From NCBI GenBank assembly GCA_964601965.1, contig CAZRPJ010000011.1, positions 221 through 64,220 of the forward strand: a stretch of DNA of 64,000 bases, written 5' to 3'. Position 1 is the first letter of the stretch. Each line of letters opens with the position of its first letter. This DNA is from an uncultured Croceivirga sp. GTDB lineage: Bacteria > Bacteroidota > Bacteroidia > Flavobacteriales > Flavobacteriaceae. Positions 32,969-58,138 of this stretch are shown piece after piece. Position numbers and translations under genes: made by a program. The notes under the pieces were generated by a model. It was not told where the DNA came from. It saw nothing but the letters and a program-made list of their open reading frames with translations, and ran no database searches.

Positions 32969-33610
32969 TTATGGTTTCCATTGGTCTGGAGCAGCGCTCC
33001 ATTCCGTTAAAGCATTTAATTGGGATTCTTTGATGTACTTCGTAGCCACCGCCTGAGATAATAGATGCGGATAATCACTTAGGGTATTTAATGCAACCTT
33101 GTGAGATTCAAAGTTCTCTGTTGCTGCTTCAAAACCGTAGGTAAAGATAGCCAACATGCCTTTGACGTCTGCTTGCGCTGCCTGTAAGGCTTTCACGGCA
33201 TTTAAACTGCTATTCCCGGTACTTATTAGGTCTTCTATTACAACCACAGTTTGATGCGGTTCTAGGTGTCCTTCTATTTGATTTTGTCTTCCATGCGATT
33301 TGGGTTGCGGTCGCACATAAACAAAAGGGAGGTCTAAAGCTTCGGCAACCAAAACTCCCATACCAATGGCTCCAGTAGCCACACCAGCAATTACGTCTGG
33401 TTTTCCATAAAGTTCGGTAACTTGTCTTGCCAGTTCATCCCTCACAAAATTTCGTACTTTCGGAAAAGATAGAAGGATTCGATTATCGCAATAAATTGGG
33501 GATTTCCAGCCAGATGCCCATGTAAATGGACTTTCAGGACTCAACTTAATTGCATTAATTTGCAGCAGTAGCTCCGCTGTTTTTTTAGCGCTATTCGTGT
33601 CCAAAATCAT
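32969..33610 (-). CDS. pyrE: Orotate phosphoribosyltransferase
   Basis: WASGWKSPIYCDNR, VVIEDLISTG PRPP motif. Likely start MILDT at 33610. Confidence 0.95.
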   Translation of the reverse strand: MILDTNSAKKTAELLLQINAIKLSPESPFTWASGWKSPIYCDNRILLSFPKVRNFVRDELARQVTELYGKPDVIAGVATGAIGMGVLVAEALDLPFVYVRPQPKSHGRQNQIEGHLEPHQTVVVIEDLISTGNSSLNAVKALQAAQADVKGMLAIFTYGFEAATENFESHKVALNTLSDYPHLLSQAVATKYIKESQLNALTEWSAAPDQWKP

Positions 33611-50276: not shown

Positions 50277-51590
50277 TTGCATACATCTCCAGAATCGTCC
50301 GTTAAAGATAAACAAGTGCTTGTAGCAATTACTCGCTCCAGCATAATTTTTCATGTTCTTATCCTGTTAATTTTAGCAGGTTTGGCCACCAATTTTTTCA
50401 CAGAATACCAGCTTGGAGGATTTACAAAGTACGCGGTAAAACATTTAGTGGTTTTTGGAACTATCTTAGTTTCGTCCGTGCTATGGAAATTGAAAACGAT
50501 GTCTACCAGTTGGTTGTTCATTATCATGGTTTACATTAACATCTTGTCTTCTACGGTGTACTTACCTTTTCGATTGGATGATCCTAACTTAAATTTTGAA
50601 GCTTATTTTTCTAGAGTAGAAATGATCATTTTTGTGATGGGATTACTACTCGCTGTTTTTGAGAAACCTTGGCACCAATTTATAGTTATTGGGTACAACA
50701 CCCTTTTTATAATAGCCTGTGCCATGCTCTATCCGGAGCTTTCCTTAGGAAAATACGTCCTAGCTTTTATTCTTATTTCTTCCGTAGGTGCTATTAGTTT
50801 TTTTGTTTTTGATAAAGTAATACGCCTGCAAAATGAACTGCAACGCCAAAACGATATTGTACGCATACAGAATGAAGAATTACTGGAGCTTACGGCATTT
50901 AGGCAGGATATTATGAAGATTATCGCCCATGACCTAAAGACACCTATTCATCAGATTTCAATGCTAACGACCATCACTAAAAACTCGAACTCTGAAAAGG
51001 ATAGAAACAACTATTTAGAGCTATTGCAGCAATCTATTGATAAGACGTATGGGATGTTAGATAATTTATTGAATTGGTCCATGCAGAATGATGATACCCT
51101 AAAATCCTATATGGACATAAACATACATGAACTTATAGAAGAAATACGAGGGCAGTATGACCAAAATTTAGAGGGAAAAGGTTTAAAATTAATTAATGAA
51201 GTAGCAACAGATTTTAACTTATTCTACTCTAAAGAAGTGTTCCAGACAGTCATAAGGAACCTCATTACAAATGCGGTTAAATTTTCACCAAAACAAGAGA
51301 AAATAGTGATTGATAATAAGGACGAAGCAGAACATTTTAGCTTACGTGTTCACAATATGGTGAAAGAAGTGGATGAGGCCAAGTTGGCTAAAATAAATAC
51401 GGGACAGATTGTAACCAGTTCCTTGGGAACAGAAAAAGAAAAGGGTACTGGAAAAGGGTTGTTTATTTGTAAACGTATGCTTAAAAACAACAATGCTACC
51501 CTAACACTTTCCAAACAAAATGGAGGAGTCCTGGCCGAGATTAAGATTTTTAAATCTATTCCGATGCGTCCGGTACTGAACGCCTCTTAA
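50277..51590 (+). CDS. Orphan membrane-bound sensor histidine kinase
   Basis: About six TM segments, AHDLKTP, RNLITNAVKF, GTGKGL. Start codon uncertain (TTG). Confidence 0.85.
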   Translation: MHTSPESSVKDKQVLVAITRSSIIFHVLILLILAGLATNFFTEYQLGGFTKYAVKHLVVFGTILVSSVLWKLKTMSTSWLFIIMVYINILSSTVYLPFRLDDPNLNFEAYFSRVEMIIFVMGLLLAVFEKPWHQFIVIGYNTLFIIACAMLYPELSLGKYVLAFILISSVGAISFFVFDKVIRLQNELQRQNDIVRIQNEELLELTAFRQDIMKIIAHDLKTPIHQISMLTTITKNSNSEKDRNNYLELLQQSIDKTYGMLDNLLNWSMQNDDTLKSYMDINIHELIEEIRGQYDQNLEGKGLKLINEVATDFNLFYSKEVFQTVIRNLITNAVKFSPKQEKIVIDNKDEAEHFSLRVHNMVKEVDEAKLAKINTGQIVTSSLGTEKEKGTGKGLFICKRMLKNNNATLTLSKQNGGVLAEIKIFKSIPMRPVLNAS

Positions 51591-52351
51591 CTTCTTATTT
51601 TACCTATAAATTCGCCGATAGAAGCAACTCCCTTTGCAGTCAATTGTTTTATAAAGGCAGAACCAATGATGGCTCCTTTGGTGTTTTTGGTTGCTGCTTG
51701 AAAAGTGGCAGCATTGCTAATACCGAAACCAACAATCTGCGGGTTCTTTAAATTTAAGGCTGCAATTCTATTAAAATAATCTTGTTGCTCTTGGCCAAAC
51801 CCTTCTTTTGCGCCCGTTGTACTGGCAGAACTAACCATGTAGATAAAACTGTCTGTGGCTTGGTCTATGGCTTTAATTCTTTGATCGCTAGTTTGTGGTG
51901 TAATTAAGAAAATGTTGCTGAGGCCATATTTTTTATAAATAGCCTCATATTCTTCTTTGTAAACATCTAAAGGGAGATCGGGCATAATAATACCATCAAT
52001 ACCAATTTCAGCACATTTAGCGCAAAAGGCTTCCACACCATACTGCAACATGGGATTAAAGTATCCCATTAGAATTAAGGGAATAGATACCGTTTTACGA
52101 ATATCCTTTAATTGTTCAAACAGCAGTTCTGTATGCATACCATTTCTAAGTGCGGCAGTAGAACTTTCTTGGATGGTTGGGCCATCTGCCAAAGGATCAC
52201 TAAACGGCAAACCTATCTCAATCATATCTACCCCAGCTGCTTCCAGTCCTTCAATAACCGGAACGGTATCTGTTAACTCAGGATACCCTGCCGTAAAATA
52301 AATAGAAAGCAATTTTTTGTCTTCTTTGAGCTTTGTTTGTATTCTATTCAT
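51587..52351 (-). CDS. trpA: Tryptophan synthase alpha chain
   Basis: IEIGLPFSDPLADGPTIQ, VGFGI. Confidence 0.97.
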   Translation of the reverse strand: MNRIQTKLKEDKKLLSIYFTAGYPELTDTVPVIEGLEAAGVDMIEIGLPFSDPLADGPTIQESSTAALRNGMHTELLFEQLKDIRKTVSIPLILMGYFNPMLQYGVEAFCAKCAEIGIDGIIMPDLPLDVYKEEYEAIYKKYGLSNIFLITPQTSDQRIKAIDQATDSFIYMVSSASTTGAKEGFGQEQQDYFNRIAALNLKNPQIVGFGISNAATFQAATKNTKGAIIGSAFIKQLTAKGVASIGEFIGKIRS

Positions 52352-52384
52352 GAATGTATTCTTTAAACGCTCGAATTTTAGTAA

Positions 52385-53566
52385 TTATAGTTTGAAATAA
52401 TCGATATAGGTCTGCAGATCCTTATCACCTCTGCCCGATAAGTTAAAGACCACCACGTCGTCTTTTTTAAAGGGGTGATAATCAAAAATCGCAAAAGCAT
52501 GACTGGTCTCTATTGCTGGGATAATCCCTTCTAATTGCGACAACTCCAAGCCAGCGGTCATGGCCTCATCGTCTGTAATAGAGATAAATTTGCCACGGCC
52601 ACTTTTAAAAAGATGTGCGTGCATGGGACCCACTCCTGGATAGTCTAATCCAGCCGAAATAGAATAGGGTTCCGTTATTTGGCCATCGTTTGTTTGCATA
52701 AGAAGTGTTTTGCTGCCATGGATAATACCAACTTTGCCTAGTGCGGAGGTAGCTGCGCTTTCTCCAGAATGTACACCCTTTCCAGCAGCTTCTACAGCAA
52801 TGATTCCTACATCTTCGTTATCTAAGTAATGGTAATAGGCTCCAGCCGCATTGCTCCCGCCTCCTACGCACGCCACCACATAGTCTGGGTTCTCTTTCCC
52901 TTCTTTCTCTTTCAACTGCCATTTAATTTCTTCTGAAATTACCGATTGAAATCTTGCAACCATATCCGGGTAAGGATGCGGACCCACCACGGAACCTATG
53001 ATATAATGTGTATCTACTGGATTGTTTATCCAATCACGAATGGCTTCATTGGTAGCATCTTTAAGCGTTCTACTTCCGGATTTTGCAGCTCTTACTTCTG
53101 CACCTAGCATTTTCATACGAGCTACATTGGGCGCTTGTCTAGCAATATCTATTTCTCCCATATAAACCACACATTCAATACCCATGAGCGCGCAGACTGT
53201 TGCAGTGGCAACCCCGTGCTGTCCTGCACCTGTCTCTGCAATGATGCGATTTTTACCTAGGCTTTTGGCCATAAGAATCTGGCCAATTGTATTATTTACT
53301 TTGTGGGCCCCTGTATGGCATAGATCTTCCCGTTTTAGGTAGATTTTAGTCTGATGTTTTTCAGACAGACGTTCTGCAAAGTAAAGTGGGGTAGGTCTCC
53401 CAACATAATCTTTTAATAACTGACGAAATTCTTTCTGGAATTCCGCTGTTTCCATGATGCGTACATAATTTTCACGAAGTTCTTCGCAATTAGGATACAG
53501 CATCTCGGGAATAAATGCTCCCCCAAATTCTCCGTAATATCCTCTCTCATTGGCGTGATAACTCAT
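52385..53566 (-). CDS. trpB: Tryptophan synthase beta chain
   Basis: [35 protein letters not shown]. Confidence 0.97.
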
Positions 53567-54176
53567 CTTGCAATCTTTTTTTAAATTCTTGTAATTTTTC
53601 TATATCCTTTTTCCCGGGACTAACTTCAAACCTACTATTGACATCAATGGCGTGGCAGTATTTTGATTCTGGGCGGTATAAAAAGGTTAATATTTCGTCT
53701 ATATTTTCCAGTCCAATACCACCACTTAAAAAGAAAGGTTTGGTAGAGGGGTAGTGCTCTAAAACTTCCCAATCAAATACATAACCGTTGCCGCCTGGGA
53801 GTTTTCCTTTCGTATCAAAAAGGTAAAAGTCGCACACTTTTTCATAAGGTTCAAGAATAGAAAAGTCAAAGGAGTCGTCCACTCCAAATACTTTAATGAC
53901 TTTAATTCCTAAGTCTTGTAGCTTTTTGCAGAGTTCAGGAGATTCGCTCCCGTGAAGTTGTACAAATTGCAGGCCATATGAAGCTACTTTTTGCAGGATT
54001 TCTTCAATTGTAGCATTTACAAAAACCCCCACCTTCTTTATTTTGAGTGATATGGAAGGAATAACGGTATCAAGGTATCGCGGTGATTTTTTCCAGAAAA
54101 TAAAACCCATGTAGTCTGGTTGTAGGGCCTCCACCTCTACTGGATTGTATTTCATACCACAGACCTTCAGTTTCAT
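53547..54176 (-). CDS. trpF: Phosphoribosylanthranilate isomerase
   Basis: KVCGM, VQLHGSE, LFDT..GG.G..FDW, LSGG, DVNSRFE. Confidence 0.95.
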
Positions 54177-54958
54177 TTTATCACCTCTTTTATAAAGTTC
54201 ATAGCACTTATACCGGGATTTTCCGTTTTCATAAAATTCTCACCTATTAAGAACCCTTGGTACCCAAATGGTTTTAGTTCTTTAATAGCGGCAACCGAAC
54301 TAATGCCGCTTTCCGAGACTTTTACAAAGTCATCTGGGATTTTATTGGCGAGCGACTTGCTGGTTTCAAGACTGACTTCAAAGGTCTTAAGATCCCTATT
54401 ATTTACACCCAAGAGGTTTAAACTTGGCATCATAGATTTTTCTAGCTCCTCTTGATTATGAACTTCAAGAAGTACTTCCATACCTAGGCGCTGCGTAAAT
54501 TCGGATAACTGTTTTATTTGGGATCTATCAAGAACTGCGGCAATGAGCAATATAACGTCTGCTCCATGTGCTTTTGCTTCTAAAATTTGATATTCGTCAA
54601 CTATAAATTCTTTACGCAGTAACGGAAGCTTAGAAACTGCTCTTGCTAACAGCAAGTCTTCTAAAGAGCCTCCAAAATATTTAAGATCCGTTAATACACT
54701 CATTCCGCATGCTCCAGCCTGTTCATAGCCTTTTGCAACTTGGGCAACATTGGTGTTCTGATTAATGGTTTGTTTGGAAGGAGATCTTCTTTTATGTTCT
54801 GCTATGATGCCAGAATCACTAGCCCGAAGTCTTTTAGAAATGGAATGACATTCTCGTGTGAATAGGACAGATTTTTCCCATTGGTTAGCCGGAATCAGTG
54901 ACGATTTTAAAGCGACCTCTTTTCTTTTATCTGCGATGATTTTGTCTAGAATATTCAT
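54173..54958 (-). CDS. trpC: Indole-3-glycerol phosphate synthase
   Basis: IAEHKRRSPS, LRKEF, GVNNRDL, SESGI. Likely start MNILDK at 54958. Confidence 0.96.
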   Translation of the reverse strand: MNILDKIIADKRKEVALKSSLIPANQWEKSVLFTRECHSISKRLRASDSGIIAEHKRRSPSKQTINQNTNVAQVAKGYEQAGACGMSVLTDLKYFGGSLEDLLLARAVSKLPLLRKEFIVDEYQILEAKAHGADVILLIAAVLDRSQIKQLSEFTQRLGMEVLLEVHNQEELEKSMMPSLNLLGVNNRDLKTFEVSLETSKSLANKIPDDFVKVSESGISSVAAIKELKPFGYQGFLIGENFMKTENPGISAMNFIKEVIK

Positions 54959-54975
54959 TGCCTTACCAGAGCGTT

Positions 54976-55971
54976 TTAATTGTTGCTTAATGCCTGTAAT
55001 TTTTTTAAGGCTTCCCAACCTTTAAGGGTATGTAAAGATTCTTGTGCTTTTTCAAATCCTTCTTTTGGACTAATACCTTCGGCTGTAGCAATAGCGACAC
55101 CGGCATTGGCACATACCACGTCTTGCTGTGCCTGCGTTCCTTTGCCTTGTAAAATGTCTACAAATAATTTGGCAGAACCTGCAACGTCATCTCCTCCAAC
55201 AATAGCGGAAGCGTTTATTTTCCTAACCCCAAAATCTGAAGGTTGAATGATTCCTTCAGAACCATTGGAAATAGTTTTCGTGGCACCCGTTAAACTTATT
55301 TCATCGTATCCATCCAACGCATGCAAAATTGTAAAGTTCTTATCGGTATTCTGATAAAGATAGCCATACATCCTTGCCAGTTCTAGATTAAATACCCCAA
55401 CCATTTGATTTTTTGGAAAGGCCGGATTCACCATAGGGCCAAGCATATTAAAGAATGTTTTAACCGCTAATTCTCTACGAATAGGGGCTACGTTTTTCAT
55501 GGCTGGGTGAAACAAAGGGGCATGCAGCACACAAATACCGGCTTCTTCAATAGATTTTTTTAGAAAGTCTGCTTCGTTGCTAAATTTTATGCCCAAAAAC
55601 TCCATGACATTGCTACTACCACATTTAGAAGAAACGCCATAATTGCCATGTTTGGTTACTTTAATTCCGGCACCCGCCGTAACAAAAGAGGCTAGGGTAG
55701 AAATATTAAAAGTGTCTTTACCATCTCCGCCGGTACCGCATAAATCAATGGGGTTGTAGTCGCTTAGGTCTACTGCAAGACAGAGTTCTAAAAGGGCATC
55801 TCTAAACCCTTCTAATTCTTCTATGGTAATGCTACGCATCATGTAAACCGTTAAAAAGGCAGCTATTTGGCTCGTATTGTATTCGCCCTTCGCAATATTT
55901 ACCAATATTTGCTTGGCATCATCCTTTTCTAGGATCTCGTGATTAATTAATTTATTTAAAGTCGCTTTCAT
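54976..55971 (-). CDS. trpD: Anthranilate phosphoribosyltransferase
   Basis: DLCGTGGDG, NISTL, KHGN, DEIS. Confidence 0.96.
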   Translation of the reverse strand: MKATLNKLINHEILEKDDAKQILVNIAKGEYNTSQIAAFLTVYMMRSITIEELEGFRDALLELCLAVDLSDYNPIDLCGTGGDGKDTFNISTLASFVTAGAGIKVTKHGNYGVSSKCGSSNVMEFLGIKFSNEADFLKKSIEEAGICVLHAPLFHPAMKNVAPIRRELAVKTFFNMLGPMVNPAFPKNQMVGVFNLELARMYGYLYQNTDKNFTILHALDGYDEISLTGATKTISNGSEGIIQPSDFGVRKINASAIVGGDDVAGSAKLFVDILQGKGTQAQQDVVCANAGVAIATAEGISPKEGFEKAQESLHTLKGWEALKKLQALSNN

Positions 55972-56534
55972 TGATCCAGCCAGTTTTTTAATAATTGTTT
56001 GCCATAGGGGGTTAGCACCGATTCGGGATGGTATTGCACCGCTCTCACATCGTATTCTTTGTGTTTTAAAGACATAATTTGTCCGTTTTCATCTACCGAT
56101 GTGGCAATCAAAGTATCTGGTAGCTTTTGGTCTACCACCCAGGAATGATATCTGCCTACTTCTATGTTTTTGGGCATTCCCTCGTAGATGTAATCGTCTT
56201 CAATTATGGTAATGGAAGTAGCAACGCCGTGGTAAACTTGATCCAAATTCACCAATGTACCGCCAAATACTTCACCAATAGCTTGTTGTCCAAGGCATAC
56301 ACCAAAAATTCTTTTGGTGGGCGCATAGGTTTTTATAATGGGTTTTAAGAGACCGGCTTCATCCGGAATTCCGGGTCCAGGAGACAATACAATTTCATTA
56401 AATTCATCTACTTCTTCCAGCGATAATTGATCATTTCGTTTTACCGTAACCTCGCAATTTAGATCCTCTAAATAGTGCACCAGATTGTAGGTGAAGCTAT
56501 CGTAATTATCCAACATTAAAATCTTTCGTTTCAT
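55968..56534 (-). CDS. trpG: Anthranilate synthase component II (glutamine amidotransferase)
   Basis: DNYDSFTYN, SPGPG, GVCLGQQ, QYHPES. Confidence 0.95.
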   Translation of the reverse strand: MKRKILMLDNYDSFTYNLVHYLEDLNCEVTVKRNDQLSLEEVDEFNEIVLSPGPGIPDEAGLLKPIIKTYAPTKRIFGVCLGQQAIGEVFGGTLVNLDQVYHGVATSITIIEDDYIYEGMPKNIEVGRYHSWVVDQKLPDTLIATSVDENGQIMSLKHKEYDVRAVQYHPESVLTPYGKQLLKNWLDQ

Positions 56535-57932
56535 CTAAATCTTTTCTGCGATTTCTAATGCCTTATTTAAAGCACCCAGTTTATTGTAGGTTTCTTGTAA
56601 TTCATCATCAGCATCGGAGGCTGCCACTAATCCTGCTCCCGCCTGAAAATGTAGCTCATGGTTTTTACTTAAAAAGGTTCTAATCATAATCGCATGGTTA
56701 AAATTTCCATGGAAATCCATAAAACCAATAGCACCACCATAATAGGCTCTGCTTGTTTTTTCGTAGCGTTCAATAAGTTGCATTGCCTTGTGTTTAGGTG
56801 CACCACTCAAAGTACCTGCAGGAAAAGTATCTGCAACAATTTTTAGCGTAGAAATAGCGGGTTTTTTGTGTCCTGTGACCTTCGATACCAAATGAATCAC
56901 GTGCGAGAAATATTGTACTTCTCTATAGGTTTCTACATTAACGAGGTTTCCATTTCTACTTAAGTCATTTCTAGCCAGATCTACAAGCATTACATGCTCG
57001 CTATTCTCTTTTTCATCCGAGGCTAACTTTTTTGCGAGTTCCGCATCTTTTTCATCATTGCCGGTTCTTTTGTAGGTGCCTGCTATGGGATGAATTTCTG
57101 CCTTTCCATCTTTTACAATGAGCTGCGCTTCTGGCGAACTTCCAAAGATTTTAAAATCACCGTAATCAAAATAAAACAAATAGGGTGATGGGTTTATAGA
57201 ACGGAGCGCACGGTATACGTTAAACTCGTCTCCTTTAAAACCTTGGGAAAACCTTCGTGATAATACCAATTGAAACACATCGCCACGCTGGCAGTGCTTT
57301 TTGGCCAATTCTACATGCTCTTTGTATTCTTCATCCTCTAAATTGGAACTGGCCTCACCGCTCTTAGAAAAGTTATACGTTGCAAAACTGCGTACTCGCA
57401 AAAGCTGCTCTATTTCTGCTATATTGGCGTCCCGTTCATAACAATGTGCAAAAATGTAGGCCTCATTTTTAAAATGATTAATTGCTATGATGTTTTGGTA
57501 GACCGCATAAAATATGTCGGGAATGGCAATGGAGTTGGGTTTTTTTGAAAGCGCTACAGTTTCAAAATAACGCACCGCGTCGTAAGCGAGGTAACCAAAT
57601 AACCCGTTCGTTATAAATTTAAAATCGTTGTTTTCTACTTTAAATTTCTTCGCAAAGGCATCCAAAAGATCTGTAACTACTACTTCTTTTGTAATGTTTG
57701 TTTCAACAGAAGTTCCATCTGGAAAGGTTTCCAATGCCACTTCATTTTCAATTTTTATTGATGCAATAGGATTGCAACAGATGTACGAGAAGCTGTTATC
57801 ATTGGCATGATAATCACTACTCTCTAAGAGAATACTGTTGGGATACTTGTCTCTAATTTTTAGGTAGACACTAACAGGGGTAATGGTATCTGCTAGAATC
57901 TGTTTGTAATGTGTTTTTAAATTGAATTGCAT
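56535..57932 (-). CDS. trpE: Anthranilate synthase component I
   Basis: LLES, NPSPY, PIAGT, EHVMLVDLARND, TLSGAPK. Likely start MQFNL at 57932 (alternative 57947). Confidence 0.95.
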   Translation of the reverse strand: MQFNLKTHYKQILADTITPVSVYLKIRDKYPNSILLESSDYHANDNSFSYICCNPIASIKIENEVALETFPDGTSVETNITKEVVVTDLLDAFAKKFKVENNDFKFITNGLFGYLAYDAVRYFETVALSKKPNSIAIPDIFYAVYQNIIAINHFKNEAYIFAHCYERDANIAEIEQLLRVRSFATYNFSKSGEASSNLEDEEYKEHVELAKKHCQRGDVFQLVLSRRFSQGFKGDEFNVYRALRSINPSPYLFYFDYGDFKIFGSSPEAQLIVKDGKAEIHPIAGTYKRTGNDEKDAELAKKLASDEKENSEHVMLVDLARNDLSRNGNLVNVETYREVQYFSHVIHLVSKVTGHKKPAISTLKIVADTFPAGTLSGAPKHKAMQLIERYEKTSRAYYGGAIGFMDFHGNFNHAIMIRTFLSKNHELHFQAGAGLVAASDADDELQETYNKLGALNKALEIAEKI

Positions 57933-57945
57933 CTTAAATTGATTC

Positions 57946-57978
57946 AAAAAATTAAGGCTTGTCGTGATGACAAGCCTT
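57946..57978 (-). terminator. trp attenuator terminator hairpin
   Basis: On the - strand: AAGGCTTGTC-ATCAC-GACAAGCCTT-AA-TTTTTT. Perfect 10-bp stem with a U6 tract, upstream of trpE. Confidence 0.9.
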
Positions 57979-58040
57979 TATATAAAATTTGGGATAGAAG
58001 GACTAGCTCACGATATCGTAAGTATGCTTTTCCACCACCA
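57946..58040 (-). promoter_or_regulatory. Ribosome-dependent transcription attenuator of the trp operon
   Basis: Trp3 leader codons, mutually exclusive 1:2 and 2:3 pairings found by hand, and the 3:4 terminator. Confidence 0.85.
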
Positions 58041-58061
58041 AGTTGTATTTGTGTTTTTCAT
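58008..58061 (-). CDS. trpL: trp operon leader peptide MKNTNTTWWWKSILTIS
   Basis: ATG 58061, TGG TGG TGG at 58040-58032, TGA at 58010-58008; 29 nt before the terminator stem. Confidence 0.9.
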   Translation of the reverse strand: MKNTNTTWWWKSILTIS

Positions 58062-58066
58062 TTGCT

Positions 58067-58097
58067 CAAATATAGTGATGTAATTAATCATTACAAA
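58067..58097 (-). promoter_or_regulatory. trp promoter: TTTG (-33), 19-nt spacer, TATATTTG (-7)
   Basis: Exact match to the Bacteroidota housekeeping consensus and spacing. Confidence 0.8.
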
Positions 58098-58105
58098 CAA
58101 AAATT

Positions 58106-58138
58106 AAAAAATCCCGCTGGTAGGGTACCAACGGGATT
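58106..58138 (-). terminator. Intrinsic terminator of the marR-nitroreductase-yceI unit
   Basis: AATCCCGTTGGTA-CCC-TACCAGCGGGATT followed by a T tract on the - strand. Confidence 0.85.

What the first reader, a model, noticed from the sequence alone, without database searches (positions are those of the whole stretch)
57946..58097. Complete trp attenuator with an unannotated, probably leaderless WWW leader peptide
Seen in sequence, on the - strand in order: TTTG-N19-TATATTTG promoter, 5 nt (AGCAA), ATG of MKNTNTTWWWKSILTIS*, and a 10-bp terminator with U6. Pairings found by hand: 1:2 GGAAAAGC (58033-58026) with GCUAGUCC (58007-58000), capped by UUACG-AUAU-CGUGA; 2:3 AG(U)CCUU(C)UAU (58004-57994) with AUAAAGGCU (57981-57973), which removes the 5' arm of the terminator. 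This geometry fits classical E. coli-type attenuation. Inference: the Bacteroidota -7 box lies only a few nt before the TSS, so the leader AUG is at or within about 2 nt of the 5' end. That would give attenuation by a leaderless uORF in a phylum that largely lacks Shine-Dalgarno initiation.
Basis: partly seen in the sequence, partly recalled or inferred. Interest (0 to 1): 0.8.

Follow-up and report, generated by a model that had tools for sequence, protein, structure and literature searches.

The report
Tryptophan operon attenuator, probably leaderless
This is the known Bacteroidota tryptophan-sensing leader (a tiny Trp-Trp-Trp peptide gene plus a terminator) in front of trpEGDCFBA; the less ordinary point is that its promoter sits so close to the start codon that the peptide is probably translated from an mRNA with almost no 5' leader.

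Summary
The sequence features are real. On the minus strand lie TTTG-N19-TATATTTG, 5 nt, an ATG opening MKNTNTTWWWKSILTIS*, a 10-bp terminator with a U-run, then trpE 14 nt on and the whole trpEGDCFBA operon.

It is a divergent member of Rfam family RF01692 (Bacteroid-trp). The window scores 43.3 bits against a cut-off of 49, while 10 of 15 orthologous leaders in relatives pass.

In 77 related leaders the frame is strictly kept: Trp codons to UGA stop is always 30 nt, with no in-frame stops. Folding with ribosome footprints reproduces classical attenuation. The real antiterminator is larger (about -10 kcal/mol) and includes UCGUGA (stop codon) pairing with UCACGA (terminator loop and 3' arm).

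The leaderless idea is supported but only inferred. Published Flavobacterium data put the start site 3-5 nt after the -7 box, giving a 0-2 nt 5' UTR here. The box-to-ATG gap is 4-8 nt in 78 of 79 relatives and never under 4 in about 180 leaders. Other family members have leaders of roughly 10-16 nt. No start-site data could be obtained.

Leaderless attenuator peptides are already known in Deinococcus and Actinobacteria. Modest novelty.

The parts
58094..58097 (-). -33 promoter element TTTG
   Evidence: Sequence. It lies 19 nt upstream of the -7 box. A TTTG or TTG at this spacing occurs in most relatives. Function is inferred from the Bacteroidota consensus (PMC6847099, PMC7366714).
58067..58074 (-). 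-7 promoter element TATATTTG (TAnnTTTG)
   Evidence: Sequence. It is one of two full TTTG-N19-TAnnTTTG matches in the window. It is conserved in 79 of 79 leaders examined.
58061..58063 (-). Predicted transcription start (A, A, or the A of AUG), giving a 5' UTR of 2, 1 or 0 nt
   Evidence: Inferred. In F. johnsoniae the box G is at -5, with 4-5 nt to the start site. F. psychrophilum start-site table entries show gaps of 3-5 nt. There is no direct data.
58008..58061 (-). Leader peptide ORF MKNTNTTWWWKSILTIS, including the stop TGA at 58010-58008
   Evidence: The frame is conserved in 77 leaders: AUG to WWW is 21, 24 or 27 nt, and WWW to stop is always 30 nt. Frame 0 has 0 stops in 494 codons, against 65 and 32 in 423 codons in the other frames.
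58032..58040 (-). Three consecutive Trp codons (UGG UGG UGG), the regulatory codons
   Evidence: The only TGGTGGTGG in the window. Invariant in alignment A1.
58030..58041 (-). Segment 1: 5' arm of the large 1:2 hairpin, containing the Trp codons
   Evidence: Minimum-energy fold. The same arrangement appears in the RF01692 consensus structure. The helix is 89% paired across A1.
58007..58022 (-). Inner hairpin CUUACG-AUAU-CGUGAG at the top of 1:2; its 3' arm holds the stop codon
   Evidence: -6.0 kcal/mol. Recovered by RNAalifold, with a CG-to-UA compensatory change in 3 sequences.
57989..58005 (-). Segment 2 (3' arm of 1:2): UAGU 58005-58002 and UUCUAUCCCAA 57999-57989
   Evidence: Minimum-energy fold. 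It overlaps the antiterminator 5' strand, so the two structures exclude each other.
57998..58013 (-). Antiterminator 5' strand: UCGUGA, GC, AG, CCUU
Evidence: Constrained folds with a ribosome on the Trp codons: 14 pairs, -9.8 to -10.1 kcal/mol.
57962..57978 (-). Antiterminator 3' strand, which is the terminator 5' arm, loop and first 2 nt of the 3' arm (AAGGCUUGUCAUCACGA)
   Evidence: The GUGA:UCAC helix is 100% paired in A1. 88 of 96 metagenomic terminator loops end in UC[A/G]C.
57946..57978 (-). Intrinsic terminator: 10-bp stem at 57978-57954, loop AUCAC, tail AAUUUUUU
   Evidence: About -15.4 kcal/mol. The stem is 100% paired in 77 sequences, with 4 compensatory UA-to-CG changes.
51587..57932 (-). 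Regulated operon: trpE 57932-56535, trpG 56534-55968, trpD 55971-54976, trpC 55018-54173 (ORF as listed), trpF 54176-53547, trpB 53566-52385, trpA 52351-51587
   Evidence: NCBIfam matches. tblastn of TrpE residues 1-465 matches relatives from the ATG at 57932.
58101..58138 (-). Strong terminator of the upstream YceI-family gene (13-bp stem plus T-run), ending 4 nt before the -33 element
   Evidence: It leaves no room for another promoter between the upstream gene and this one.

Best explanation
This is a ribosome-mediated transcription attenuator of the trpEGDCFBA operon. It belongs to the Bacteroidota 'Bacteroid-trp' leader family.

RNA polymerase starts at a TTTG-N19-TATATTTG promoter. The 17-codon leader ORF begins 0-2 nt from the 5' end, so the ribosome most likely loads on a 5'-terminal AUG.

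Three outcomes are predicted:
- Trp-tRNA plentiful: the ribosome runs to the UGA at 58010-58008. There it covers the antiterminator 5' strand (58013-57998). The terminator (57978-57954 plus U-run) forms and transcription stops before trpE.
- Trp-tRNA scarce: the ribosome stalls on UGG UGG UGG (58040-58032). This holds segment 1 away from segment 2. Segment 2 (UCGUGA...AG.CCUU) then pairs with the terminator's 5' arm, loop and first 3'-arm bases (AAGGCU...UCACGA), and polymerase reads through into trpE.
- No ribosome: the 1:2 hairpin forms and the terminator forms.

Shown here: the sequence elements, family resemblance, conservation of frame and geometry, and computed alternative folds.

Inferred: the start site, translation of the ORF, the Trp response, and termination itself.

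My confidence is about 0.9 for the attenuator and about 0.65 for a 5' UTR of 0-2 nt.
For: Operon identity.

Family:
- RF01692 is the top match, at 43.3 bits and E = 5e-4 in the local search, covering the full model 1-131.
- 10 of 15 orthologous leaders pass the cut-off at 49.8-73.9 bits.

Conservation:
- 78 of 80 related loci have the WWW ORF.
- WWW to stop is 30 nt in 77 of 77, and AUG to WWW is a multiple of 3.
- There are no in-frame stops.

Structure:
- z = -4.45 for the leader fold.
- The termination-state and antitermination-state helices are each 93% paired across 77 sequences, against 20-56% when partners are slid.

Switch:
- With a ribosome at W2 or W3, the terminator 5' arm is paired upstream in 76-77 of 77 sequences (mean -9.6 to -9.9 kcal/mol).
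- With a ribosome at the stop, this holds in 11 of 77 (mean -1.85).
- The window's antiterminator is -10.1 kcal/mol.

Experimental support for the family: in F. psychrophilum the element maps upstream of trpE-pabA-trpDCFBA, read-through depends on conditions, and expression peaks in minimal medium (PMC9723704 supplement).

Leaderless part:
- The -7 box lies at -12 to -5, with 3-5 nt to the start site.
- The box-to-ATG gap is 4 (5 cases), 5 (42), 6 (2), 7 (25), 8 (4) and 30 (1) in 79 genomic leaders.
- In 103 metagenomic leaders, 46 have 4-8 nt and none has fewer than 4.
- The upstream gene's terminator ends 4 nt before the -33 box.
- The first 25 nt are unpaired in the minimum-energy fold.
- There is no alternative in-frame start codon between the ATG and WWW.
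Against: - No start-site, Term-seq or Ribo-seq data exist for this organism or a close relative. The RNA runs found were metatranscriptome contigs with no usable 5' ends, and one search found nothing.
- The window is below Rfam's gathering score.
- Covariation is thin because the sequences are highly conserved. Only 3-4 pairs per conformation show double changes. The tested structures were derived from one member, which biases the slid-partner control.
- Leaderless or near-leaderless mRNAs are rare in Bacteroidota (3.7-5.5%).
- Other family members, including F. psychrophilum, have 14-21 nt between box and ATG, so a 5'-terminal AUG is not required for the mechanism.
- A 1-2 nt UTR is not strictly leaderless, and how Bacteroidota ribosomes handle it is untested.
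- The U-run is separated from the stem by AA.
- Ribosome footprint limits used in the folds are assumptions.
Confidence: 0.8

Rival explanations
1. The attenuator is the same, but the mRNA has a normal leader. Transcription would start further upstream, by read-through from the YceI-family gene or from an unrecognised promoter. TATATTTG would then be a transcribed A/U-rich element that helps initiation in a phylum without Shine-Dalgarno sequences.
For: - Most Bacteroidota mRNAs have leaders, with median 24-32 nt.
- About 40% of metagenomic family members have 14-21 nt between box and ATG, so the leader ORF can be translated from a leadered mRNA.
- No start-site data are available here.
Against: - The full -33/-7 consensus is present with the canonical 19-nt spacer, and it is conserved across genera while the spacer sequence varies.
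- A 13-bp terminator plus T-run ends 4 nt upstream of the -33 box.
- The sharp lower bound of 4 nt in about 180 leaders is what a promoter predicts and has no explanation under this rival.
- The upstream in-frame ATG at 58091 is not conserved.
Confidence: 0.2
2. The conserved peptide (N-T-W-W-W-x-N-L-R-x-x-S-UGA) is a TnaC-like arrest peptide. It would sense free tryptophan in the exit tunnel and stall at the invariant UGA, rather than sensing Trp-tRNA supply.
For: Several residues, the peptide length after WWW (7 residues) and the UGA stop are invariant or nearly so.
Against: The conserved residues are explained at the RNA level:
- The third base of codon 13 covaries with the base after the stop (CG to UA, 3 sequences).
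- Leu14 to Ser arises from a U-to-C change that strengthens a pair.
- The last codon varies in its first base (Ser, Thr, Ala, Pro) while keeping CG in the stem.
- UGA lies in two alternative helices.

The direction of regulation would also be wrong for a biosynthetic operon, because stalling at the stop blocks the antiterminator. An intrinsic terminator is present, not a Rho site.
Confidence: 0.03
3. The terminated leader is mainly a small RNA or small peptide gene acting in trans, as rnTrpL and peTrpL do in Sinorhizobium. The near-invariant terminator would reflect that role.
For: - The terminator stem and loop are unusually invariant across genera.
- Attenuator-derived trans-acting RNAs and peptides are documented in Sinorhizobium (PMC6614838, PMC7298713; listed).
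Against: - The invariance is accounted for by dual pairing of these bases in terminator and antiterminator.
- No target or second copy was found in the window.
- This would be an added function, not a replacement for cis attenuation.
Confidence: 0.05
4. Control is by a protein or tRNA (TRAP-like or T-box-like), and the short ORF is incidental.
For: Other phyla control trp operons in these ways (general knowledge).
Against: - No T-box or other riboswitch match appears, even at E up to 10.
- The leader holds only two (G/U)AG triplets rather than a TRAP array.
- The ORF frame is strictly conserved.
Confidence: 0.02

Closest known systems
Bacteroid-trp RNA motif, Rfam RF01692 (Weinberg et al. 2010, PMC2864571); mapped in Flavobacterium psychrophilum (PMC9723704)
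   Same: - Same position, 5' of trpE in a Bacteroidota trp operon.
- Short ORF with UGG UGG UGG.
- Hairpin whose 5' arm holds the Trp codons.
- Inner CUUACG/CGUGAG hairpin carrying the stop codon.
- Conserved AAAGGCUUGUC at the 3' end.
- Orthologous leaders in relatives pass the Rfam cut-off.
   Different: - The window scores 43.3 bits, below the cut-off of 49.
- Its ORF is one codon shorter before WWW (7 codons instead of 8).
- Its inner hairpin is shifted, with a 4-nt loop.
- The small hairpin between 1:2 and the terminator, seen in most relatives, is missing.
- The Rfam model stops at the terminator 5' arm, so it does not describe the stop-codon-to-loop antiterminator pairing or the promoter spacing.
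- F. psychrophilum has 16 nt between TTTG and ATG, not 5.
E. coli trpL attenuator (Rfam RF00513 Trp_leader; Yanofsky model)
   Same: - The logic matches: regulatory Trp codons in segment 1, alternative 1:2, 2:3 and 3:4 pairings, and an intrinsic terminator before trpE.
- The distance from AUG to the end of the terminator is similar: 116 nt here, against about 114 nt in E. coli by my recollection.
   Different: - There is no sequence relationship; RF00513 does not appear in the list.
- E. coli has a Shine-Dalgarno-led ORF behind a 5' UTR of about 26 nt, 2 Trp codons in 14 residues, and a TrpR repressor as well.
- Here there are 3 Trp codons, no Shine-Dalgarno sequence, and a promoter abutting the AUG.
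Leaderless attenuator peptides of Deinococcus deserti (14 cases; trpEGD start site at -1; PMC4007540), Corynebacterium glutamicum (trp WWW, ilvB, leuA; PMC4046766 and Morbach 2000 cited there) and mycobacterial polycysteine uORFs (bioRxiv 10.1101/834739)
   Same: The leader peptide is translated from a 5'-terminal or near-terminal AUG without a ribosome-binding site, and it controls a downstream amino-acid operon. C. glutamicum also uses three Trp codons.
   Different: - Those phyla have abundant leaderless mRNAs (25-60%) and sigma-70 type -10 promoters, and their start sites were measured.
- Here the phylum rarely uses leaderless mRNAs, the promoter is the Bacteroidota -33/-7 type, and the start site is only inferred.

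Membership tests
Bacteroid-trp (Rfam RF01692) | Covariance-model score at or above the curated gathering score (49 bits) | tested here: not met
   There is no match at gathering threshold. In the local search the score is 43.3 bits, E = 5e-4, with full-length model coverage.
Bacteroid-trp (Rfam RF01692) | Located in the 5' region of tryptophan biosynthesis genes of a Bacteroidota genome | tested here: met
   trpEGDCFBA follows directly. The nearest TrpE relatives are Flavobacteriaceae such as Flagellimonas and Maribacter, at 77-84% identity.
Bacteroid-trp (Rfam RF01692) | Short ORF with consecutive Trp codons lying in the 5' arm of a conserved hairpin | tested here: met
   The ORF has WWW at codons 8-10. 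The minimum-energy fold pairs 58041-58030 with 57999-57989.
Bacteroid-trp (Rfam RF01692) | Orthology with accepted members (same locus, alignable sequence) | tested here: met
   It aligns with 76 leaders from the same locus, with mean column identity 75%. 10 of 15 of those tested pass the Rfam cut-off.
Classical ribosome-mediated (leader-peptide) transcription attenuator | Translated leader ORF enriched in codons for the pathway's amino acid | tested here: inconclusive
   The ORF and its frame are strongly conserved, with 0 in-frame stops in 494 codons. Translation itself was not observed.
Classical ribosome-mediated (leader-peptide) transcription attenuator | Intrinsic terminator between the leader ORF and the first structural gene | tested here: met
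   A 10-bp G+C-rich stem with a U-run lies at 57978-57946, 14 nt before the trpE ATG.
Classical ribosome-mediated (leader-peptide) transcription attenuator | Mutually exclusive 1:2, 2:3 and 3:4 structures whose choice depends on ribosome position | tested here: met
   This was tested in silico only. Constrained folds on 77 sequences and on the window show the switch, and pairing is conserved.
Classical ribosome-mediated (leader-peptide) transcription attenuator | Read-through responds to Trp or charged tRNA-Trp | not testable with these tools
   The only indirect evidence is condition-dependent read-through in F. psychrophilum (PMC9723704 supplement).
Leaderless mRNA | Primary 5' end at, or within a few nt of, the A of the start codon | not testable with these tools
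   This is inferred from promoter geometry and from conserved spacing with a lower bound of 4 nt. The RNA runs gave no 5' ends.
Leaderless mRNA | AUG start codon and an unstructured 5' end | tested here: met
   An ATG was found at the expected distance in all 79 WWW leaders (the search looked only for ATG). The first 25 nt are unpaired in the minimum-energy fold.

The most novel reading that the evidence does not exclude
In a large part of the Flavobacteriaceae, the trp leader peptide is translated from a truly or nearly leaderless transcript, with the AUG at +1 to +3. Ribosome loading for attenuation would then depend on the 5' end rather than on any upstream mRNA signal.

The family exists in two forms that have interconverted repeatedly. 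One has a box-to-AUG gap of 4-8 nt. The other has 14-21 nt, corresponding to a leader of roughly 10-16 nt. Near-identical peptides occur with either spacing.

This would make the family a natural test bed for how ribosomes of a phylum without Shine-Dalgarno sequences find start codons.
Probability: 0.6. Interest if true: 0.5.

Novelty: new member of a known kind. Interest (0 to 1): 0.33.

Why it matters
The attenuator itself adds little. It confirms that a curated family (RF01692) misses divergent members at its threshold.

Two by-products are more useful:
- Promoter-to-AUG spacing across about 180 leaders is bimodal and never below 4 nt. This is comparative evidence that many Bacteroidota trp leader peptides start at the very 5' end of the mRNA. 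If start-site mapping confirms it, leaderless attenuator uORFs would extend from Deinococcus and Actinobacteria to a phylum where leaderless mRNAs are rare. It would also give a compact reporter for 5'-end-dependent initiation without Shine-Dalgarno pairing.
- The near-invariant terminator loop is explained by pairing of UCACGA with the stop-codon region UCGUGA in the antiterminator. The Rfam model does not include this feature.

Tried and rejected
- An Rfam search at gathering threshold over the whole window found nothing. Only the permissive local search found RF01692.
- Direct RNA evidence for the start site was not obtainable. RNA runs holding the window are low-depth metatranscriptome contigs; one covers 57793-57965 but gives no 5' end. 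Rhizosphere 'RNA-Seq' contigs for a Flavobacterium-like relative with a 4-nt gap (L143) span the whole intergenic region and probably contain DNA. No RNA run was found for the Zobellia locus L078.
- The F. psychrophilum start-site table is truncated in the stored copy and lacks the trpE row.
- The B. thetaiotaomicron supplements hold no trp leader entry.
Whether such peptides are annotated anywhere stays unknown.
- RNAalifold on the MAFFT alignment recovered only the inner hairpin and the terminator. The outer helix and antiterminator had to be tested with structures mapped from one member, which biases the control.
- A scan of the window for other short ORFs with amino-acid runs plus a terminator found only this one.
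- TnaC-like, TRAP-like and T-box-like readings were considered and rejected, as set out under the rival explanations.
Full report
**1. What is in the sequence**

On the minus strand the order is as follows:
- TTTG at 58097-58094.
- A 19-nt spacer.
- TATATTTG at 58074-58067.
- AGCAA.
- ATG at 58061.
- A 17-codon ORF, MKNTNTTWWWKSILTIS, ending in TGA at 58010-58008.
- A hairpin AAGGCTTGTC-ATCAC-GACAAGCCTT at 57978-57954.
- AATTTTTT up to 57946.
- After 13 more nt, the ATG of a 465-aa ORF at 57932.

That ORF and the six after it match TrpE, TrpG, TrpD, TrpC, TrpF, TrpB and TrpA. Upstream lies a YceI-family gene whose own 13-bp terminator and T-run end four bases before the TTTG.

TGGTGGTGG occurs only here in 64 kb, against 0.24 expected. 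The full promoter pattern occurs twice, against 0.79 expected. The 127-nt leader folds at -34.1 kcal/mol, z = -4.45. The features are real and are not chance.

**2. What it is**

At Rfam's curated thresholds nothing in the window matches. A permissive search of 351 nt puts RF01692, 'Bacteroidete tryptophan peptide leader RNA', first. It scores 43.3 bits against a cut-off of 49, with E = 5e-4 and model positions 1-131 all aligned.

TrpE-anchored loci from 80 Flavobacteriaceae species were fetched, with 77-84% TrpE identity (Flagellimonas, Maribacter, Arenibacter, Zobellia and others). Of these, 78 carry a homologous leader with a 17-19 codon ORF, consensus M-K-N-x-x-x-N-T-W-W-W-x-N-L-R-x-x-S. 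Ten of fifteen tested pass the RF01692 cut-off at 49.8-73.9 bits.

The window's element is therefore a divergent, sub-threshold orthologue of a described family (Weinberg et al. 2010, PMC2864571). In Flavobacterium psychrophilum the same element was mapped upstream of trpE-pabA-trpDCFBA. There the operon shows condition-dependent read-through and highest expression in minimal medium (PMC9723704 supplement).

**3. Evidence that the ORF is read**

In 77 distinct leaders:
- The distance from AUG to the first UGG is 24 nt (72 cases), 21 nt (4 cases, including the window) or 27 nt (1 case).
- The distance from the first UGG to the stop is 30 nt in all 77.
- The stop is always UGA.

Codons 2-6 vary freely. 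Even so, frame 0 holds no stop in 494 codons, while the other two frames hold 65 and 32 in 423. No locus was discarded for lacking an open frame.

The conserved residues after WWW are explained by RNA pairing rather than peptide function:
- The third base of codon 13 covaries with the base after the stop (C-G to U-A in three sequences).
- Leu14 to Ser arises from a U-to-C change that turns a G-U pair into G-C.
- The last codon varies in its first base (Ser, Thr, Ala, Pro) but keeps the paired CG.

**4. Structures**

The predicted free fold of the window pairs UUGG.GGUGGAA (58041-58030, all three Trp codons) with UUCUAUCCCAA (57999-57989). GC.UA (58027-58023) pairs with UAGU (58005-58002). The fold is capped by CUUACG-AUAU-CGUGAG (58022-58007, -6.0 kcal/mol), whose 3' arm contains the stop codon.

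This is the arrangement of the RF01692 consensus.

Folding with a ribosome footprint on the Trp codons, and the transcript extended to the first two bases of the terminator's 3' arm, gives a larger antiterminator of 14 pairs at -9.8 to -10.1 kcal/mol:
- UCGUGA (58013-58008) with UCACGA (57967-57962).
- GC (58007-58006) with GU (57971-57970).
- AG (58004-58003) with CU (57974-57973).
- CCUU (58001-57998) with AAGG (57978-57975).

The terminator itself is about -15.4 kcal/mol.

Across the 77 leaders:
- A ribosome placed at the second or third Trp codon leaves the terminator's 5' arm paired upstream in 76-77 sequences (mean -9.6 to -9.9 kcal/mol).
- A ribosome at the stop codon does so in only 11 (mean -1.85).

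Both conformations are 93% paired across the alignment, against 20-56% for slid partners. True covariation is sparse, and the structures were taken from one member.

The pairing of the stop region with the terminator loop explains why that loop is almost invariant. GUGA:UCAC is paired in 77 of 77, with five U-G wobbles where the loop is UCGC. In a wider metagenomic sample, 88 of 96 loops end in UC[A/G]C although loop length varies.

**5. How it most likely works**

This is classical attenuation.
- With ample charged tRNA-Trp, the ribosome reaches UGA and covers 58013 to about 57997, the whole antiterminator 5' strand. The terminator then forms.
- With scarce tRNA-Trp, the ribosome stalls on 58040-58032 and keeps segment 1 (and, at the third codon, the inner hairpin's 5' arm) single-stranded. 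The stop region and the bases after it pair with the emerging terminator 5' arm and loop, and polymerase continues into trpE.
- Without translation, 1:2 forms and termination follows.

These steps are inferred from sequence, conservation and energy calculations. None was observed.

**6. The leaderless question**

In F. johnsoniae the -7 element occupies T-12 to G-5, with 4 or 5 nt to the start site (PMC6847099). F. psychrophilum places the box at -12 to -5. Four start-site table entries I could read show gaps of 3, 4, 4 and 5 nt.

With the G at 58067, the start site would be 58063, 58062 or 58061, all adenines. The AUG would then be at +3, +2 or +1.

Comparative data agree:
- The gap between box and ATG is 4 nt (5 cases), 5 (42), 6 (2), 7 (25), 8 (4) and 30 (1) in 79 genomic leaders.
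- A pattern scan of metagenome contigs returned 120 stretches. Of these, 103 distinct leaders carry a recognisable box. The gap is bimodal: 4-8 nt in 46, 9-12 in 14, 14-21 in 40, and 27-34 in 3.
- In neither set is the gap below 4. That is the smallest value that still leaves the AUG inside the transcript.
- Near-identical peptides occur with either spacing. For example, MKTILNNTWWWNNLRQTS occurs with 4 and with 18 nt. Both forms therefore appear workable and have interconverted.

In the window there is no room for another promoter between the upstream terminator and the -33 box. There is no alternative in-frame start before WWW, and the first 25 nt are unpaired.

Against this, leaderless mRNAs are uncommon in the phylum (5.5% in F. 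psychrophilum; 3.7% of 5' UTRs under 10 nt in B. thetaiotaomicron). F. psychrophilum's own trp leader has 16 nt after its TTTG. I could obtain no 5'-end data.

I put the probability of a 0-2 nt 5' UTR here at about 0.65.

**7. Comparison with what is known**

- The element works like the E. coli trpL attenuator but is unrelated in sequence.
- It belongs by orthology to Bacteroid-trp, although it fails that family's score cut-off.
- Attenuator peptides translated from leaderless transcripts are documented in Deinococcus deserti (14 cases, with the trpEGD start site at -1; PMC4007540), in Corynebacterium glutamicum (PMC4046766) and in mycobacteria (bioRxiv 10.1101/834739).
- My literature searches found no statement of this arrangement for Bacteroidota. 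That is absence in the searched library only.

**8. Verdict**

One helix is mis-drawn and the antiterminator is incompletely described. The leaderless inference is reasonable, is strengthened here by comparative spacing, and is still unproven. If confirmed it would be a modest extension of a known phenomenon to a new phylum.

Interest is 0.33. Novelty: a new member of a known kind.

Noticed in passing
L005:2161-2445 and L053:2146-2439 (probably also L016, L022, L025, L068): In several relatives a 94-97 aa ORF sits between the trp attenuator's terminator and trpE. Its sequence (...YIGYTNNLEKRMKQHKSG...) looks like a small GIY-YIG-type nuclease gene by eye. It pushes the leader 320-580 nt away from trpE. 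Its family was not checked.
   Followed up: partly
window 32969-33610 (-): A 213-aa phosphoribosyltransferase-domain ORF (Pfam PF00156) starts 4 nt after a TACATTTG box (TACATTTG-CGCA-ATG), with no clear -33 element. It is a second candidate for a leaderless transcript in this window.
   Followed up: partly
L081-L200 (metagenome loci): Across Bacteroid-trp leaders, the distance from the -7 box to the ATG is bimodal (4-8 nt and 14-21 nt) and never below 4. Near-identical leader peptides occur in both classes, which suggests repeated switching between leaderless and short-leader forms.
   Followed up: partly
L013:2300-2370 (Pareuzebyella sediminis): This is the only one of 79 close relatives with a long gap (30 nt) between the -7 box and the leader ATG. 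It looks like an insertion just downstream of the box.
   Followed up: no
window 57954-57978 and alignment A1 columns 99-125: The terminator stem and loop (GGCTTGTC-ATCAC-GACAAGCC) are nearly identical across many genera, in F. psychrophilum and in the Rfam consensus. That is unusual for a terminator. It is explained here by dual use of these bases in the antiterminator, but a further role is not excluded.
   Followed up: yes
window 58089-58091 (-): An in-frame ATG lies between the -33 and -7 boxes and would give MINYITIFEQM-KNTNTTWWW... Similar ATGs occur in about 14 relatives (MISIFEPM...), but they are not conserved and lie upstream of the predicted start site. They are probably a by-product of the promoter sequence.
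   Followed up: yes
window 56535-57947 (-): The mechanical ORF list starts trpE at a TTG at 57947, inside the terminator's U-run. The ATG at 57932 is the likely start, because relatives align from residue 1 of that reading.
   Followed up: yes
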